This document shows positions 923 through 5,303 of a stretch of 20,061 bases of DNA, piece by piece. Numbering within the stretch: the stretch's first letter is position 1; each line of letters opens with the position of its first letter. The stretch lies in the UHGV virus genome UHGV-0175271, one strand, 5' to 3'. The stretch is from a virus. The notes below the pieces were generated by a model that worked only from the letters and a program-made list of their open reading frames with translations, was not told the origin of the DNA and searched no databases. A program made the position numbers and the translations under genes.

Positions 923-1003
923 AAACACTCCTGCCATTTCATGCCGGTAGTATAACGGATGGTGTAAGACAATCAGTGATTATGACGATGACAATTTACA
1001 GGC

Positions 1004-1030
1004 AAAAAAAACCCCCACGTCATGTGGGGG
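1004..1030 (-). terminator. Rho-independent terminator (minus strand): CCCCCAC-ATGAC-GTGGGGG stem-loop followed by U8
   Basis: Plus strand reads A8 (1004-1011), then 7-bp GC-rich stem 1012-1018 / 1024-1030 with a 5-nt loop. On the minus strand this is hairpin plus an 8-U tract, placed about 80 bp upstream of the fieF start and downstream of the cargo operon. Confidence 0.65.
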
Positions 1031-1124
1031 AAGACAGGGATGGTGTTGTTTTACGACATGTAACATACTGAATAAATTATATTTATATTAATATCTCCGT
1101 CCACAAAACGTCCACATCGACCAT

Positions 1125-1153
1125 AAGCCCCAGAGTCAATTCTGGGGCTTTTT
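1125..1153 (+). terminator. 10-bp stem-loop (AAGCCCCAGA / TCTGGGGCTT, 6-nt loop) with T-tract on the plus strand only
   Basis: Perfect inverted repeat 1125-1134 / 1141-1150 followed on the plus strand by TTTCTC. It sits 7 nt beyond the stop of the minus-strand gene 1160-1870, where the minus-strand reading has no U-tract. Either a 3' stabilising stem for that mRNA or the terminator of an unannotated plus-strand transcript. Confidence 0.4.
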
Positions 1154-1159
1154 CTCAAC

Positions 1160-1870
1160 CTATTTTTTGAATTTATTCTGAAGATACTCGACTAAGTACT
1201 CGAAAAGTTTACTAATTGGTGTTGAGATCTGCGCCAATGTATTATTCTTCTCTTCTGCTTCTTCTTCCCTAAACAACGCCCGCATTAAAGCAATCGCAAG
1301 CGTTAACCCCACCCCAAGAATGAATGCAATGAGAGTTATCATGGGACTAATAGATAACCAGTTTGTCGTTTCCAAAAATTTTTCTATGAGGCTATTACGC
1401 TGCTGGGCTGCTTGAGTACTAAGTTCTCTAGCCGTTTCACGAGCATGATACAAACTCTCAGGGGGCGAAGGTTGAGCCGTGAAAACAAACTCACTAATTG
1501 CTTTGGGTGAAGACTCATCTACAACCCTCACCATTGCCTCTTTCACATCCTGCTTAGTTTTTAGCATATTGACAGTAAGGCATACCGACATGATTGCGCC
1601 AATAAGCAAAAACAGAGCGCTTGCCCCTACAGTAAAACGAAAGAGCCATTTACGCATATTGCGTCTATCTTCATGGTTTTCAGCACGATGACGCACATTC
1701 TCAGTACTTTCAGGTAAATTCGCTAAGGGAAATGACGGGTCTGGCGGCCCGACCACTATAGGTTCGCCAAATTTAATTGATTCTCCACCTTCATTTTTTG
1801 TCTCATTATGAGTTGGTTGAGTGCCTGATGTTGCTGTATTTGGGGAATTGTTAGATGATTCTTTAGACAT
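1160..1870 (-). CDS. Two-TM membrane protein of unknown function (second gene of the cargo operon)
   Basis: 236-aa ORF with ATG start. The N-terminal ~80 aa are hydrophilic and low-complexity (Ser/Thr/Asn/Pro/Glu-rich), followed by a basic patch RRNMRKW and TM1 (FRFTVGASALFLLIGAIMSVCLTV), a ~100-aa predicted periplasmic segment, TM2 (ISPMITLIAFILGVGLTLAIALMRALF) and an acidic/basic C-tail. Strongly AT-rich: hand counts on two 60-nt samples gave about 27% and 40% GC, against about 55% in a tail-gene sample. No family recognised. Confidence 0.6.
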   Translation of the reverse strand: MSKESSNNSPNTATSGTQPTHNETKNEGGESIKFGEPIVVGPPDPSFPLANLPESTENVRHRAENHEDRRNMRKWLFRFTVGASALFLLIGAIMSVCLTVNMLKTKQDVKEAMVRVVDESSPKAISEFVFTAQPSPPESLYHARETARELSTQAAQQRNSLIEKFLETTNWLSISPMITLIAFILGVGLTLAIALMRALFREEEAEEKNNTLAQISTPISKLFEYLVEYLQNKFKK

Positions 1871-1875
1871 AAAAA

Positions 1876-1900
1876 AGCCACCGAATTCAATTAGGTGGCT
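1876..1900 (-). promoter_or_regulatory. Intergenic stem-loop (AGCCACC / GGTGGCT, 11-nt loop) sequestering the downstream gene's Shine-Dalgarno and abutting its ATG
   Basis: 7-bp inverted repeat 1876-1882 / 1894-1900. On the minus strand the 3' arm contains GGTGG, the only SD-like sequence for the ATG at 1870, and is followed by U5-6 immediately before the ATG. It therefore looks like a partial intrinsic terminator or attenuator plus a translational block between the peptidase and membrane-protein genes. Confidence 0.4.
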
Positions 1901-1937
1901 TCATTTTAGTTTGAAAAGCATTCAGTATCTATAACTG

Positions 1938-2423
1938 TTATAGATAACCTAGATTTTTCATGCGCCAGTACATAGCTTCTTCTGATACGTCAAAGCGGCT
2001 AGCTAATGCTGAAACCGCATATACTTTTTCTCTATTGATCAACGTAGCGATCGCATCTTCTGGCATAAGAAGTTCAGCAGCGAAGCGATTAGCGTCTTTT
2101 TCTTCAACATAATTCCCATCATTCCAAGCGGGGTTTGAGTATTCCCTCAACTTCCGCCCGTTACGGGTATGCCCAAGGACATGATGCCCAAGCTCATGAG
2201 CTAGCGTAAAACGAATCCTGCTATGAGGATCTGAAGTGTTATATGAGATTACATAGCGACCTTCAGGTGTAATCTCAGCAAACCCACATTGATTTGAATT
2301 GCTTCCATCAGGAACCAACGGTGTTACTTGAATTCCCATTTTGTGTGCAATCAGGTCTGGTCGCACTGGCAAGCGACCATCCCAATGGGAATTAAGCACA
2401 GCTTTTACTGCGTTAAATTCCAT
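1938..2423 (-). CDS. ImmA/IrrE-family (M78 / DUF955 / COG2856-like) zinc metallopeptidase, stand-alone with no HTH domain
   Basis: 161-aa ORF with ATG start and an AGGGAGA SD 8-12 nt upstream. Contains the family-typical RFTLAHELGHHVLGH (HExxH) zinc motif followed by the conserved E..ANRFAAELLMP segment. AT-rich like its downstream partner. Its stop codon lies inside a 21-bp perfect palindrome (1926-1946). Confidence 0.8.
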   Translation of the reverse strand: MEFNAVKAVLNSHWDGRLPVRPDLIAHKMGIQVTPLVPDGSNSNQCGFAEITPEGRYVISYNTSDPHSRIRFTLAHELGHHVLGHTRNGRKLREYSNPAWNDGNYVEEKDANRFAAELLMPEDAIATLINREKVYAVSALASRFDVSEEAMYWRMKNLGYL

Positions 2424-2673
2424 CGTTCAAGTCTCCCTTGTCATCGGTATGATATTTGTATTAAGCCGAAACAGCTTCCGTAAAACAAAATGTACTACAT
2501 ATTTGTCCAGTAGTAACGATTTTCATGCAAAAAAACATTGACTTTTCCGTAATGAACTGAATTTTAATGATAAATATATTATTCCATTCAGACCGCCGTC
2601 TATATACACCACCCCATCTTAAATGTCAACAAAATTATCTCGTTGCTTTTAAAATTTAAGTCGCCCATCGGGA

Positions 2674-2946
2674 AACCATCACAACCATCACCTCCCTTAA
2701 AAACACAACTTAACCATATGATTATCATGAATAAATATTGTGACGGTAAAACCATCACAAAACGTAACGCAAACCATCACACCCAATAAATTCAGTAAGT
2801 TATAAAACAGAGTTGTGATGATTTAAGACCGTCACACTGTGATGCTGTTGTGATAGTTTTGTGATGGTTTCCAATACGCAAATTTAATTATATATCATAT
2901 AGATATATGCCATTTTTAAATCTTGTGACGTTTGTGATGGTTTTCC
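2674..2946. repeat. Iteron-like array: at least 12 copies of an 8-9 bp motif (TGTGAYGG, or its complement CCRTCACA) in both orientations around AT-rich cores
   Basis: Copies read as AACCATCAC/CCGTCACA on the plus strand at 2674-2682, 2683-2691 (perfect tandem), 2750-2758, 2772-2780, 2829-2836, with a degenerate copy at 2712-2718. Copies read as TGTGAYGN at 2739-2746, 2814-2821, 2838-2845, 2849-2856, 2860-2867, 2924-2930, 2933-2940. GGAAACCATCACAA (2671-2684) is the exact inverse of TTGTGATGGTTTCC (2859-2872). A very AT-rich tract lies at 2873-2920. No ORF of 60 aa or more in the region. Confidence 0.75.
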
Positions 2947-3570
2947 GATAGCCCCCATAACTTTTTGAAAAAATCAGAACTGGTCAGAAATCACCCTGAT
3001 TTGTTGGTGGTTTTGTATATCTATCTGTTAGTGACTTGGACACTGGAGCATGCATGTTAATGCAGGTATGGCGATGGTTCAGGCTGTGCAAAGTATTTCA
3101 GTTGCGCATTTCACTGCCATTCCGTGCCAGAGCACGTCAGTTAAGGCCTGGACACTTTCCCCACTTACGTGATCCCGCAGAGATTGTTCCGACAAAAGTC
3201 ACGTAATCGCTGTTAACCCCGCATGAAACCCGGCACCGGCATTTTTCACCCACAGCCGGTAATCGCACAAAAACTGAAATCCTTGAAATCTGTTTCACAT
3301 ATTTCAGTCGGTGAACTACCGCCAAAGCCCCAGCGCTGGCACAGTCTGGCGATGTGTTTTGTACCCCCAGAAAAACTGAAATCATTCTCAACACGAAAAC
3401 CGCAGGCGGGTGCGGTGTAGCGCCGTTTTCGTCACTTCCGCCGTTATTTCGTCGTGGCAGGCTGCATCAGCGCCTTGCTGTGCTTTTAAAGCTAATTAAG
3501 TTGGGATGGAGCGGGTGTAGATACTGGCGGCGCTCAGAATGCGTCTGGTGAGGTCTGGTGGGTGCGATAA

Positions 3571-3589
3571 AGCCCGCATGACGCGGGCT
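3571..3589 (-). terminator. Stem-loop (AGCCCGC-ATGAC-GCGGGCT) just downstream of the last tail-operon gene; weak U-tract
   Basis: 7-bp stem with 5-nt loop lying 11 nt past the stop of the 567-aa gene. The minus-strand downstream sequence is UUUAUCG, so it is at best a weak intrinsic terminator. Confidence 0.35.
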
Positions 3590-3599
3590 GGTTGAGAAA

Positions 3600-5303
3600 T
3601 CAGGCGATAATGTTCTGATACTTGCTCCGAGTCTGCCCGGCTTTCGTCGCCGTCTGTGTGAACGCGGCTGCATTAGTTGGAGTCCCAACTGTGGGGTGCG
3701 AATGGTTCGCACATTGCTGCGCCAGCTCTGCCAGTAAATCAATGGTGTCCAGCATCATGGTCAGGGCGTTGATACTCTCGCTGCCAATATGGACTGTTGC
3801 CCCCATGACCTGCTGACCGCCAGCGGCCACTGATTTACGCAGTGCGGCAATCTTCTCTGTCAGGCTTTCGCCAACCTCCACGGCTACAGCACCGCCCACT
3901 TTAGTGGACTGCTGTCCTGCTATGTCCGTTTCTTCGTTTCCTTCAATACTGGCCAGCCTGTTACCTTTCACCGCCTGGCTATAATCACCGGCGCTTACCT
4001 GCTGGATGGCTCCGGCCAGCAGTGTGGCGGTTCCCAGTACCGTGGTTTTGTCCGTGGCTTTCACCGTGGTTTCACGGCTGACCAGTTCGCGCTGTTCCGT
4101 ATCGGCTTTTACGGTTCGCGCCATCGATGTTTCACTGATGGTTTGATCGGTCTGCCTTACCCAGTCTCCAGCCTGAGTCACCCTCTGGGATACTTCTTCC
4201 CTCTGCTGCTGCAATTGCTCACCGGGTTTAACGTCCGGCAGGCTGGTACCATCCGGCAGCGTCTGCCTGATAAAGGGTTTATCCGGTCTGCCTCCCGTGA
4301 ATGCAACCTCAACCAGCGTCCCTTCTGGCGGAAACTGAAACATACCTGAATCATTCCCGGCCATTGGCACCGGCAGCGGCACCGCTGAGTAAACAGGCGT
4401 CTGATTGTCCGGGTTTCCGTCTGCGTCAAGCAGCTGAACGTCCACGGCATAACGTGGGCGGAATGGATCGGCAAAATTACCACTTTTCACGGGTTCAGTA
4501 TGTGCCACCACTCTGGCCATCTTTGGCAGATGAAGCCCGGAAGCCAGTTCCGGATAATGGCTCTCAATCTGTCGTTGTGTCGGTGTTTTCTGGAGGGGGC
4601 TGCCTGTGACGCGGTTCCGGGGTGTCCAGGTGATAGTCATCGTGTCATTTGTAAGATGGACTTTGGTGACCCGTTCACCGTTAAGCTCAACGCCGGGTCG
4701 TATCGTCTGGATCACCGGTAACGTTATGGTATTCCCGCCAGCAGCCCCCTGGCTGAACTCTGCCGGCACTTCGACCGGACGACCGGTAAACAGTGACTTT
4801 TCAGCACCGCCGACGTAAAGCGAACCATCAGGCAACTGGTACCAGATGTAATCCTGGATACTGAATGCCCTGCCCAGGTTGTTCAGCAACTGATAGCCGG
4901 TACCGTTATGGGTGAAATGGGGGATCGGAGTATCGCTGTAAGACACATCGGGTACACTGACACCGATCCCGCTGTTTTCCGTCAGCCAGCCGGCCACATC
5001 CCTTAATGTCGGGTGCTGAAATGAACATGGCCACATCCTTTCAAAAACACCGGCCAGCTCACGAATGAACAGACGCTGATAACCGTTTTCAGCTGGTTGT
5101 GAACGTTCAACATAACCGGTAAACCAGCGCAAAAGCAGGTCGGTATATCCCACATCCAGCCGCACCAGTTTCCCGGTATAATCAGTGGTTGTCTCTGCGG
5201 TAATAAATCCCCGACCGCAACTGTTAAGCTCCAGTACCAGGCTGGCATCAGCCAGATGCACTTCATCCGTTGAAAGGTAAAGACGTTTAACTGGTTTCAT
5301 CAT
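3600..5303 (-). CDS. Phage tail/baseplate protein, unassigned (candidate hub/gpD-like component by elimination)
   Basis: 567-aa ORF at typical phage GC. Its ATG overlaps the upstream gene's stop (TAATG), so it is translated as part of the tail operon. No motif recognised; the assignment rests only on hub, spike and tube-initiator functions being otherwise missing from the module. Confidence 0.5.
   Translation of the reverse strand: MMKPVKRLYLSTDEVHLADASLVLELNSCGRGFITAETTTDYTGKLVRLDVGYTDLLLRWFTGYVERSQPAENGYQRLFIRELAGVFERMWPCSFQHPTLRDVAGWLTENSGIGVSVPDVSYSDTPIPHFTHNGTGYQLLNNLGRAFSIQDYIWYQLPDGSLYVGGAEKSLFTGRPVEVPAEFSQGAAGGNTITLPVIQTIRPGVELNGERVTKVHLTNDTMTITWTPRNRVTGSPLQKTPTQRQIESHYPELASGLHLPKMARVVAHTEPVKSGNFADPFRPRYAVDVQLLDADGNPDNQTPVYSAVPLPVPMAGNDSGMFQFPPEGTLVEVAFTGGRPDKPFIRQTLPDGTSLPDVKPGEQLQQQREEVSQRVTQAGDWVRQTDQTISETSMARTVKADTEQRELVSRETTVKATDKTTVLGTATLLAGAIQQVSAGDYSQAVKGNRLASIEGNEETDIAGQQSTKVGGAVAVEVGESLTEKIAALRKSVAAGGQQVMGATVHIGSESINALTMMLDTIDLLAELAQQCANHSHPTVGTPTNAAAFTQTATKAGQTRSKYQNIIA

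What the first reader, a model, noticed from the sequence alone, without database searches (positions are those of the whole stretch)
1871..1946. Structured intergenic RNA inside the cargo operon: SD-sequestering hairpin with U-tract before the membrane-protein ATG, and a 21-bp palindrome over the peptidase stop codon
The only SD-like sequence for the membrane-protein gene (GGTGG) lies in the 3' arm of a 7-bp GC-rich hairpin (1876-1900) that is followed by five or six U directly abutting the ATG. This should both attenuate transcription and block translation initiation, as expected if the downstream product is toxic. Separately, 1926-1946 is a perfect 10+1+10 palindrome (TATCTATAAC-t-GTTATAGATA) spanning the peptidase stop, which looks like a dimeric protein-binding site or an RNA hairpin.
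Basis: seen in the sequence. Interest (0 to 1): 0.5.

Follow-up and report, generated by a model that had tools for sequence, protein, structure and literature searches.

The report
Terminator hairpin hiding a ribosome site
Between two prophage cargo genes (a small metallopeptidase and a two-helix membrane protein) lies a conserved RNA hairpin that looks like a transcription stop signal and buries the ribosome-binding site of the membrane-protein gene; this is an ordinary kind of control element that should keep the membrane protein scarce relative to the peptidase.

Summary
On the minus strand, AGCCACC (1900-1894), an 11-nt loop and GGTGGCT (1882-1876) are followed by a T-run that abuts the ATG at 1870. 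The 10+1+10 palindrome (1946-1926) spans the peptidase stop codon (1940-1938).

The hairpin is not a chance feature. Only three hairpin-plus-T-run sites occur in the whole 20-kb window, against 0.1 in shuffles. The same layout (hairpin, U-run, AUG) is present in all 28 distinct intergenic variants from homologous loci. The stem comes in five sequence versions linked by compensatory changes. The G-rich SD-like motif always lies in the 3' arm and is predicted fully paired. The same stem plus U-tract acts as a generic gene-end terminator form in unrelated bacteria.

The best reading is an operon-internal intrinsic terminator that also occludes the downstream SD, which lowers membrane-protein output relative to the peptidase. 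A conserved -10-like hexamer just upstream leaves an internal-promoter (insulator) variant open.

The palindrome is lineage-specific. Hairpins of different sequence and spacing recur in about a third of variants, so it is not a conserved protein operator.

The element is a new member of a known kind and of modest interest. No function was tested experimentally.

The parts
1938..2423 (-). Upstream gene: stand-alone 161-aa ImmA/IrrE (Peptidase_M78) metallopeptidase
   Evidence: ORF. Pfam PF06114 E = 4.5e-20. PADLOC capP 7e-25. No HTH domain.
1926..1946 (-). Perfect 10+1+10 palindrome over the peptidase stop codon (TAA 1940-1938). As RNA it forms an 8-9 bp A/U-rich hairpin, enclosed by a weaker outer helix UGAAAA(1960-1955)/UUUUCA(1917-1912).
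   Evidence: I23. p = 0.002 against shuffled downstream sequence. It is lineage-specific in homologues. It is 100% identical in the closest relative L044.
1926..1931 (-). Candidate -35-like hexamer TAGATA (it is the end of the palindrome's 3' arm), 17 nt upstream of the -10-like hexamer
   Evidence: Listed by the consensus scan at 9/12 matches, but such sites are no more frequent than in shuffles. T and G are conserved in near-clade loci. Unproven.
1903..1908 (-). Candidate -10-like hexamer TAAAAT, 2 nt upstream of the hairpin. The predicted start site would be about A1896, inside the 5' arm.
   Evidence: T1, A2, A5 and T6 are (near-)invariant while positions 3 and 4 vary in 14 near-clade variants. 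A TAnnnT hexamer is present in all 28 variants, and is TATAAT in L038. No good match in clade L053. Unproven.
1894..1900 (-). 5' arm AGCCACC of the hairpin (anti-SD-like CCACC), extended by A1901 and G1902
   Evidence: Stem conserved in all homologues.
1883..1893 (-). 11-nt loop TAATTGAATTC. It is variable between loci, though most near-clade loops share a TGA core (TTGAT in the commonest form). The near-clade exceptions are L006 (Dickeya) and L039.
1876..1882 (-). 3' arm GGTGGCT, which carries the only SD-like motif (GGUGG 1882-1878; GGUG is complementary to 16S CACC), 7 nt from the AUG
   Evidence: P(unpaired) = 0.00 in the read-through transcript
1871..1876 (-). Run of six U (the first is the last stem base) directly abutting the start codon. 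It is both the terminator U-tract and the SD-AUG spacer.
   Evidence: d-score +7.9, tail score 4.74
1160..1870 (-). Downstream gene: 236-aa protein with a disordered N-terminus, two long hydrophobic helices and an invariant second TM segment. It has no Pfam, NCBIfam or PADLOC family; it matches phrog_8096.
1125..1150 (.). 10-bp hairpin AAGCCCCAGA/TCTGGGGCTT just after the membrane-gene stop. A T-run follows it only on the + strand, so it is oriented against the operon.
   Evidence: (I21)
1012..1030 (-). Canonical terminator CCCCCACATGACGTGGGGG + T8 at the end of the module, inside the att-like repeat at about 1001-1049

Best explanation
The hairpin at 1876-1900 with its U-run is an operon-internal Rho-independent terminator (attenuator). 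It sits between a stand-alone ImmA/IrrE-type peptidase gene and a two-TM membrane-protein gene of a prophage cargo module. Its 3' arm is also the Shine-Dalgarno element of the membrane-protein gene.

Transcripts coming from the peptidase gene either end in the U-run, right at the AUG, or read through. Read-through transcripts carry the SD locked in a stem of about -13 kcal/mol. Both effects lower synthesis of the membrane protein relative to the peptidase.

Shown here: the structure, its conservation and covariation, the terminator anatomy, and the predicted pairing of the SD.

Inferred: that termination and translational occlusion actually occur, how strongly, and that the purpose is to limit a potentially harmful membrane protein.

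The 21-bp palindrome over the stop codon is most likely a lineage-specific, dispensable RNA hairpin in the peptidase 3' end, not a protein operator.
For: 1. The layout is conserved. All 28 distinct intergenic variants from homologous loci have a hairpin, then a U-run (mostly 6-8 U), then the AUG with no gap. Two further clades found through the peptidase have the same layout (L053, L054).

2. There are five stem versions: AAGCCACC/GGUGGCUU, AAAAUCACCAUUAU/AUAAUGGUGAUUUU, AGCCCUU/AAGGGCU, AAAAGCCACU/AGUGGCUUUU and GAAGCCACUU/AAGUGGCUUU. On the 24-sequence alignment, 90.8% of cells are paired against 31-59% when partners are slid. G-C changes to A-U and C-G to U-A between clades; A-U changes to U-G and U-A to C-G within the far clade. 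The two single changes (L009, L006) give G.U wobbles, which pair only on the mRNA strand.

3. RNAalifold on 14 near-clade variants returns this hairpin as the only consensus structure. The stem is far better conserved than the flanking spacer.

4. An SD-like G-run (GGUG or AGGG; AGUGG in the two clades found through the peptidase) always sits in the 3' arm, separated from the AUG only by the U-run (and the last stem bases), about 7-11 nt upstream. P(unpaired) is 0.00 in all 28 variants scored.

5. The d'Aubenton-Carafa-type terminator score is positive in 24 of 28 variants.

6. The identical stem plus T6 occurs in more than 120 unrelated genomes. In 65 of 81 cases it lies within 150 nt downstream of a same-strand ORF, so it is a generic terminator form. 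Only 12 of 81 are followed by an ORF of 60 aa or more, so the ATG being a gene start is specific to this module.

7. It is one of only three such sites in the 20-kb window; shuffles give 0.1.

8. The peptidase stop is about 35 nt upstream of the stem, beyond a terminating ribosome's footprint, so the hairpin can fold (established ribosome footprint sizes).
Against: - There are no transcript-end or expression data.
- The near-clade loop is 10-11 nt, longer than typical terminators. The core stem is only about -9 to -10 kcal/mol, so termination may be weak.
- Four variants (E. coli L001 and L002, Dickeya L006, L041) have interrupted U-tracts and a score at or below zero while keeping the hairpin. 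The stem (SD occlusion) is therefore more strictly conserved than the terminator tail.
- More distant homologous pairs have overlapping or adjacent genes (gap -8 to +13) with no hairpin, so limiting the membrane protein in this way is not essential to the system.
- A conserved -10-like hexamer just upstream suggests the downstream gene may have its own promoter.
- No alternative (anti-terminator or anti-sequestor) structure was found, so how the gene is ever expressed beyond leak is not explained.
Confidence: 0.6

Rival explanations
1. Insulator plus internal promoter. The spacer carries a sigma-70 promoter (-35 TAGATA 1931-1926, 17-bp spacer, -10 TAAAAT 1908-1903) whose start site (about A1896) lies inside the 5' arm. 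Transcripts from upstream form the full hairpin and are terminated and untranslatable. Transcripts from the internal promoter lack the 5' arm, are not terminated and expose the SD. This is the logic of fold-back inhibition of IS10 transposase mRNA (recalled from memory). The two genes would then be separate transcription units.
For: - A TAnnnT hexamer with at least 4 of 6 (mostly 5 of 6) matches to TATAAT sits just upstream of, or overlapping, the stem base in all 28 variants; it is TATAAT in L038.
- In the near clade, positions T1, A2, A5 and T6 are (near-)invariant while 3 and 4 vary, which is the conservation pattern of real -10 elements. T and G of the -35-like hexamer are also conserved, at a constant 17-bp spacing.
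- The consensus scan lists this site at 9 of 12 matches.
- A transcript starting at 1896 folds no better than random (-6.3 kcal/mol, z = 0.11) against -13.5 for the full hairpin.
- Homology between loci starts only about 19 nt upstream of the peptidase ATG, so no conserved promoter for the pair is evident.
Against: - Promoter-like sites are no more frequent in this region than in shuffles (7 found against 7.2 expected).
- In the far clade the hexamer is mostly the A-tract that pairs with the U-tract, so it is not independent evidence.
- Clade L053 has no acceptable -10.
- The -35-like hexamers are poor in several loci (TAGCAT, TAGTAT; none in L015 or L006).
- In truncated near-clade transcripts the SD is only partly freed (P(unpaired) 0.05-0.3).
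- A-rich sequence upstream of terminators is expected anyway.
Confidence: 0.25
2. The hairpin is essentially a translational operator or mRNA-stability element and does not terminate transcription to any useful extent. The U-run serves as an A/U-rich spacer or S1-binding enhancer. The stem either throttles initiation or protects the upstream peptidase mRNA from 3' exonucleases after processing.
For: The stem and SD pairing are kept in the four variants whose U-tract is interrupted. The near-clade loop is long for a terminator. The SD is fully paired in every variant.
Against: 24 of 28 variants have an uninterrupted run of 6-8 U and a positive terminator score. The far clade, L038, L053 and L054 have textbook terminators with 4-8 nt loops. 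The identical stem plus tail is used at gene ends in many genomes.
Confidence: 0.1
3. The 21-bp palindrome (and possibly the hairpin) are DNA sites for a dimeric regulator, for example an operator over the -35 of an internal promoter.
For: It is a perfect 10+1+10 palindrome, p = 0.002. It overlaps the -35-like hexamer. It is identical in the closest relative.
Against: - Arms differ in sequence and spacing between homologous loci, or are absent, although the proteins are conserved.
- Changes in the coding arm are matched by complementary, not identical, changes in the other arm (TATCTA/TAGATA, TACATC/GATGTA, TACATG/CATGTA, ATCTGT/ACAGAT). This favours base-pairing over recognition of a fixed half-site.
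- The half-site is not enriched elsewhere (11 found against 7.6 expected).
- No HTH or other DNA-binding domain is encoded in the module.
Confidence: 0.04
4. The spacer encodes a 3'-UTR-derived small RNA: stem-loop over the stop codon, an A/U-rich linker, then a terminator with a U-tail. That is the usual architecture of Hfq-dependent sRNAs such as CpxQ.
For: The architecture is visible. The weak sub-threshold Rfam hits are all terminator-bearing sRNAs or leaders.
Against: No Rfam family reaches threshold. The 5' hairpin and linker are poorly conserved. No target or seed was identified.
Confidence: 0.04

Closest known systems
Rho-independent (intrinsic) terminators used as operon-internal attenuators, for example the palindromic terminator between the toxI repeats and toxN in type III toxin-antitoxin loci, which sets the antitoxin:toxin transcript ratio (PMC3401426)
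   Same: A G+C-rich stem with a U-tract placed directly in front of the second, potentially harmful gene of a phage-related two-component module. The expected effect is more upstream product than downstream product.
   Different: Here the upstream product is a protein (M78 peptidase), not an RNA repeat array; no tandem repeats are present. The terminator's 3' arm is itself the SD and the U-tract abuts the AUG. The near-clade loop is unusually long (10-11 nt).
SD-sequestering mRNA hairpins: fold-back inhibition in IS10/IS50 transposase mRNA, 5' structures of type I toxin mRNAs (hok, tisB), and the sdi structure upstream of lambda holin S (all recalled from memory)
   Same: The SD of a membrane-active or harmful protein is paired with an upstream anti-SD-like sequence (CCACC, AUCACC), which limits initiation. 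A possible start site inside the 5' arm would reproduce the IS10 logic.
   Different: No antisense RNA, processing step or alternative structure that would open the hairpin was found. The hairpin doubles as a terminator. The internal start site is hypothetical.
Intergenic RNA thermometer of Yersinia yscW-lcrF (PMC3280987) and fourU/ROSE thermometers
   Same: A structured intergenic spacer inside an operon whose second hairpin occludes the downstream RBS.
   Different: The stem here is G-C rich (about -13 kcal/mol) with no fourU-SD pairing or destabilising mismatches, and the U-run lies outside the stem. There is no Rfam hit.
CapP/CapH and ImmA/ImmR-type protease-repressor modules (protein context)
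   Same: The peptidase matches PADLOC capP (7e-25) and Pfam Peptidase_M78. The module rides on prophages, in the far clade at the P2 replication-gene/portal defence hotspot (PMC9519451).
   Different: No HTH partner gene is present. The conserved partner is a two-TM protein of no known family. The pair is not in PADLOC 2.0 or NCBIfam as a system.

Membership tests
Rho-independent (intrinsic) terminator | Stable G+C-rich stem-loop | tested here: met
   7 bp with 5 G-C pairs, extended to 9 bp. Free energy -13.5 kcal/mol (extended) and -9.2 (core).
Rho-independent (intrinsic) terminator | U-tract immediately 3' of the stem | tested here: met
   UUUUUU at 1876-1871. 24 of 28 homologous variants have an uninterrupted run of 6-8 U and a positive d-score; 4 have interrupted tracts.
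Rho-independent (intrinsic) terminator | Short loop (typically 3-8 nt) | tested here: not met
   The loop is 11 nt in the window and 9-12 nt across the near clade, which is why the scan missed it. The far clade has 4-7 nt (10 nt in L020), and L038, L053 and L054 have 6-8 nt.
Rho-independent (intrinsic) terminator | Lies shortly downstream of a same-strand ORF | tested here: met
   It starts about 35 nt after the peptidase stop. The identical stem plus tail lies within 150 nt downstream of a same-strand ORF in 65 of 81 unrelated genomic hits.
Rho-independent (intrinsic) terminator | RNA 3' ends map to the U-tract, and termination occurs in vitro | not testable with these tools
   No transcriptome data are available.
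SD-sequestering translational repressor hairpin | The SD at functional spacing from the start codon is base-paired | tested here: met
   GGUGG lies 7 nt from the AUG. P(unpaired) = 0.00 in all 28 variants.
SD-sequestering translational repressor hairpin | Pairing is maintained by covariation in homologues | tested here: met
   Five stem versions with compensatory changes.
SD-sequestering translational repressor hairpin | An identifiable way to open the structure (alternative fold, processing, trans-factor) | tested here: inconclusive
   There is no conserved alternative structure. A start site inside the 5' arm is possible but unproven.
Operator for a dimeric DNA-binding protein (palindrome 1926-1946) | Half-site sequence and spacing are conserved in homologous loci | tested here: not met
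   Arms and spacers differ or are absent. Only 5 of 25 variants reach p < 0.05, and their sequences are unrelated.
Operator for a dimeric DNA-binding protein (palindrome 1926-1946) | A cognate DNA-binding protein is encoded nearby, or further copies of the site exist | tested here: not met
   No HTH domain is present. The half-site occurs 11 times against 7.6 expected in the window.
Curated RNA families (riboswitches, leaders, thermometers, sRNAs; Rfam 15) | A match at the gathering score | tested here: not met
   0 hits at gathering over the window. The best sub-threshold hit is 27.2 bits against a 59-bit cut-off.
Sigma-70 promoter (candidate internal promoter) | -10 TAnnnT and -35 TTGnnn with a 16-18 bp spacer, conserved in homologues | tested here: inconclusive
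   The -10-like hexamer is conserved in 28 of 28 variants with the expected positional pattern. The -35 is weak or variable. The motif is absent in clade L053. The scan count equals the shuffle expectation.
Type III toxin-antitoxin locus (ToxIN-like) | A tandem array of antitoxic RNA repeats upstream of the terminator | tested here: not met
   There is no tandem repeat between 1871 and 2600 apart from a 15-nt, 2-copy coding repeat. The upstream element is a protein gene.

The most novel reading that the evidence does not exclude
The peptidase and two-TM protein pair is an uncharacterised prophage-borne toxin-like or anti-phage module that moves between P2-like, lambda-like and other prophages. 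In its enterobacterial branch, the ancestral translational coupling of the two genes has been replaced by a bifunctional spacer. That spacer is a terminator whose 3' arm is the SD, combined with an internal promoter that fires from inside the 5' arm. As a result, only promoter-initiated transcripts can make the membrane effector, and all read-through from phage or host promoters is both terminated and untranslatable.
Probability: 0.15. Interest if true: 0.55.

Novelty: new member of a known kind. Interest (0 to 1): 0.33.

Why it matters
The element itself is a textbook kind of control: an internal terminator combined with SD occlusion. Its value is as a clean, comparatively well-supported example.

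It has five covarying stem versions and an invariant layout of hairpin, U-run and AUG. It is attached to a two-gene prophage cargo module that no database names. That module sits in known defence hotspots of P2-like phages and at the attR end of prophages integrated between cpxP and fieF.

It gives a concrete handle for expressing and testing that module. Removing the hairpin should de-repress the membrane protein. It also warns annotators that the conserved start codon lies directly after the U-run; one RefSeq P2-like phage record calls the start 144 nt too far downstream.

Tried and rejected
- A protein-profile scan of species-representative genomes for the membrane protein found nothing; the gene is accessory.
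- A viral-contig scan with the L038 protein found nothing.
- Rfam at gathering and at permissive thresholds gave no family.
- The AlphaFold model of the membrane protein was low-confidence (pLDDT 63.5, pTM 0.33; all-helical with a disordered N-terminus), so no fold search was run.
- The palindrome half-site is not enriched elsewhere in the window.
- I looked for a conserved anti-terminator or anti-sequestor pairing. RNAalifold gives only the terminator hairpin, and inspection by eye found at most 4 bp between the conserved UGGC in the peptidase 3' end and the 5' arm, so I rejected it.
- I rejected an RNA-thermometer reading because the stem is G-C rich and there is no fourU pairing.
- I rejected ribosome-dependent attenuation because the stop codon is about 35 nt from the stem.
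- Literature searches for the gene pair in P2-hotspot and defence papers found no description.
- The exact-pattern genome scan did not find more copies of the module, only unrelated terminators with the same stem. That result was useful as a control.
Full report
**1. What is in the sequence**

On the minus strand the region reads...GGT TAT CTA TAA CAGTTATAGATACTGAATGCTTTTCAAACTAAAATGA AGCCACC TAATTGAATTC GGTGGCT TTTTT ATG TCT AAA....

The upstream ORF (1938-2423, minus strand) is a 161-aa stand-alone Peptidase_M78 (ImmA/IrrE) protein: Pfam E = 4.5e-20 and PADLOC capP 7e-25. The downstream ORF (1160-1870, minus strand) is a 236-aa protein with no Pfam, NCBIfam or PADLOC family. It matches phrog_8096 (1e-15) and weakly a holin PHROG (E = 0.0055). 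AlphaFold gives a low-confidence model that is all-helical with residues 1-55 disordered.

- stem 1900-1894 / 1882-1876 (7 bp, extended to 9 by RNAfold);
- 11-nt loop;
- six T (1876-1871) abutting the ATG at 1870;
- GGTGG at 1882-1878;
- a perfect 10+1+10 palindrome at 1946-1926 that encloses the stop codon TAA at 1940-1938.

The ATG is the first start after an in-frame TGA (1903-1901). It is also the conserved N-terminus of the family.

**2. Is it more than chance?**

- The 111-nt region folds at -23.5 kcal/mol (z = -2.98).
- A scan of the whole window for a perfect 7-bp G/C-rich stem, a loop of 3-12 nt and a T-run finds three sites on both strands of 20 kb, against 0.1 expected from shuffles. 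These are this hairpin and two sites at the distal end of the same two-gene module.
- The built-in terminator scan missed the hairpin only because its loop limit is 8 nt.
- The palindrome is also unlikely by chance in this sequence (p = 0.002 against shuffled downstream sequence).

**3. Genomic setting**

The window is an enterobacterial chromosome. It has fieF at 20-937 and phage tail genes from 3600 onward.

Homologues of the membrane protein form a small family of 29 clusters, all Enterobacterales. In every locus recovered, the order is peptidase, then a 59-72 nt spacer, then the membrane gene.

The pair sits at the attR-proximal end of different prophages integrated between cpxP and fieF:
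- P2-like prophages, after gpD-Ogr;
- lambda-like prophages, after Lom and the tail-fibre genes;
- an HP1-like prophage;
- the myovirus-like prophage of this window.

In Dickeya the pair lies elsewhere.

A second clade, with 26-30% identity in the membrane protein, lies after the P2 replication gene A. This includes a RefSeq P2-like phage. That position is the known tin/old defence hotspot (PMC9519451).

Homology between loci begins only about 19 nt upstream of the peptidase ATG and runs to about 1001. There, a repeat of about 49 bp looks like the att site. A defence or toxin-like role is an inference from position only.

**4. The hairpin is conserved as a structure**

I collected 28 distinct versions of the spacer. 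Every one has a hairpin, then a U-run, then the AUG with no nucleotide between. A search through the peptidase added two more clades with the same layout (L053, L054).

Five stem versions exist:

| Clade | 5' arm | 3' arm |
|---|---|---|
| Near | AAGCCACC | GGUGGCUU |
| Far | AAAAUCACCAUUAU | AUAAUGGUGAUUUU |
| L038 | AGCCCUU | AAGGGCU |
| L053 | AAAAGCCACU | AGUGGCUUUU |
| L054 | GAAGCCACUU | AAGUGGCUUU |

- On a 24-sequence alignment, 90.8% of cells are paired, against 31-59% for slid partners. Double changes G-C to A-U and C-G to U-A separate the clades. A-U to U-G and U-A to C-G occur within the far clade.
- The two isolated single substitutions (L009 3' arm C to U; L006 5' arm C to U) give G.U pairs. 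These are tolerated only on the mRNA strand.
- Loops vary freely.
- RNAalifold on the near clade returns this hairpin as the only consensus structure.
- The spacer of the closest relative (95% protein identity) is identical, while the flanking codons differ.

**5. What the hairpin looks like functionally**

*(a) Terminator.* A d'Aubenton-Carafa-type score (formula recalled from memory) is positive in 24 of 28 variants. The far clade, L038, L053 and L054 have textbook stems and 4-8 nt loops.

An exact-pattern scan of 185,579 species genomes for AAGCCACC-N9-12-GGTGGCTTTTTTATG returned more than 120 unrelated hits. In 65 of 81 examined, the hit lies within 150 nt downstream of a same-strand ORF. 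Only 12 of 81 are followed by an ORF of 60 aa or more. This exact stem and tail is therefore a common gene-end terminator form, and the ATG being a real start codon is peculiar to this module.

*(b) SD occlusion.* The only G-rich motif near the AUG is in the 3' arm in every clade (GGUGG, GGUGAU, AAGGG, AGUGG). Only the U-run (plus the last stem bases) separates it from the AUG, about 7-11 nt upstream. Its predicted unpaired probability is 0.00 in all 28 variants scored. The 5' arms (CCACC, AUCACC) resemble the 16S anti-SD.

*(c) Weak points.*
- The near-clade loop is long (10-11 nt).
- Four variants have interrupted U-tracts but keep the stem.
- More distant peptidase and two-TM pairs in phages have overlapping or adjacent genes (gap -8 to +13) with no hairpin. 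The spacer is therefore a derived feature of one branch, not a requirement of the system.

**6. Most likely mechanism**

Transcripts entering from the peptidase gene either terminate in the U-run, so they end at the AUG, or read through with the SD locked in the stem. Both effects reduce membrane-protein synthesis relative to the peptidase.

The peptidase stop codon is about 35 nt from the stem, so a terminating ribosome does not interfere with folding.

This works like the internal terminator that sets the antitoxin:toxin ratio in type III toxin-antitoxin loci (PMC3401426). It is not a member of that family: the upstream element is a protein gene and there are no repeats.

I put 0.6 on this dual-action reading. 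That the hairpin is a selected RNA structure is much more certain than its quantitative effect.

**7. The main open alternative**

Directly upstream of the stem there is a -10-like hexamer in all 28 variants (TAAAAT here, TATAAT in L038).
- In the near clade, T1, A2, A5 and T6 are (near-)invariant while positions 3 and 4 vary.
- A TAG... hexamer sits 17 bp further upstream.
- The predicted start site (about A1896) lies inside the 5' arm.
- Such a transcript would lack the hairpin: -6.3 kcal/mol, no better than random, against -13.5 for the full hairpin.

That would make the element an insulator. Read-through would be killed and only promoter-initiated RNA would be translatable, as in IS10 fold-back inhibition.

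Against this reading:
- promoter-like matches are at shuffle frequency;
- the far-clade hexamer is largely the A-tract that pairs with the U-tract;
- clade L053 lacks the hexamer;
- -35 matches are poor in several loci;
- the SD is only partly freed in silico.

I give this about 0.25.

**8. The palindrome**

In the window it is perfect, but it is not a conserved element. Folding around the stop codon has a mean z of -0.6 over 25 variants. Only 5 of 25 variants reach p < 0.05 individually, and the combined p is 0.018, with non-independent data. RNAalifold does not retain it.

Where a hairpin exists, it has a different sequence and geometry:

| Locus | 5' arm | Loop | 3' arm |
|---|---|---|---|
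| L004 | TCTATAAG | tc | CTTATAGA |
| L006 | AAACTTAAA | ttatg | TTTAAGTTT |
| L007, L029 | TACATG | N13 | CATGTA |
| L039 | TACATC | tgatg | GATGTA |
| L015 | ATCTGT | aaga | ACAGAT |
| L001 | GTATCT | N8 | AGATAC |

The non-coding arm tracks the last codons of the peptidase gene. That pattern fits selection, in some lineages, for base-pairing (an RNA hairpin). It argues against a fixed dimeric-protein operator.

The module also encodes no DNA-binding domain, and the half-site is not repeated elsewhere. The role of the palindrome (mRNA stability, processing, or none) is open.

**9. Comparison and verdict**

- There is no Rfam family.
- I found no literature description of the pair.
- The element is a new member of a known kind: an intrinsic terminator that doubles as an SD-sequestering hairpin.
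- The 'toxic product' rationale and the protein-binding reading of the palindrome are not supported.
- Interest is modest. The more interesting object is the unnamed peptidase and two-TM cargo module that the hairpin regulates.

Noticed in passing
window 2424-3600, especially 2665-3014: This is an ORF-free 1.2-kb stretch. It holds at least 10 copies, in both orientations, of AAACCATCACAA / TTGTGATGGTTT, including perfect 14-15-nt inverted pairs. Region 2655-3600 is about 90% identical to E. coli prophages, where it lies between the same 567-aa spike-like tail gene and a different cargo gene (an acyltransferase next to raiA). Region 3022-2660 is 82% identical to a stretch between an antirepressor-like gene and an HTH gene in L040. 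The motifs could be iterons or operators; the function is unknown.
   Followed up: partly
window 1001-1049 (includes the terminator at 1030-1012, minus strand): This is an att-like sequence of about 49 bp at the module/host junction upstream of fieF. It is present twice in L042 (3810-3858 and 5120-5168), flanking a 1.26-kb insert with two small genes. Several unrelated prophage types use this cpxP-fieF site.
   Followed up: partly
window 1125-1150: A 10-bp hairpin AAGCCCCAGA/TCTGGGGCTT lies right after the membrane-gene stop. A T-run follows it only on the + strand, so it would stop transcription entering the module antisense from the fieF side rather than terminate the operon itself.
   Followed up: no
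L046-L125 (IMG/VR loci found with the peptidase profile): Stand-alone M78 peptidases of about 150-165 aa, followed by a protein with two TM helices and a similar C-terminal tail, are widespread in phage contigs. In the more distant pairs the genes overlap or are adjacent (gap -8 to +13), which suggests translational coupling. The 59-72-nt hairpin spacer is confined to one branch. A few peptidases are instead followed by a 345-411-aa soluble protein.
   Followed up: partly
window 1160-1870 (protein) and alignment A1: The membrane protein has a hypervariable, low-complexity N-terminus (residues 1-44). This is followed by a conserved motif DPSFPLANLPES...AENHEDRR just before TM1. The second TM segment is almost invariant (SPMITLIAFILGVGLTLAIALM). 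A cleavable or regulated N-terminal region acted on by the adjacent peptidase is conceivable but untested.
   Followed up: no
L043 (NC_070905.1, P2-like phage) 3391-3603: The RefSeq CDS for the membrane protein (gp42) is annotated to start at locus position 3603. The family-conserved ATG directly after the hairpin U-run is at 3459, so the start is probably called 144 nt too far downstream.
   Followed up: partly
Genome-contig hits L126-L205: The exact string AAGCCACC-N9-12-GGTGGCTTTTTTATG occurs in more than 120 phylogenetically scattered genomes, nearly always just after a gene. This shows how often independent terminators converge on the same GCCACC/GGUGGC stem.
   Followed up: yes
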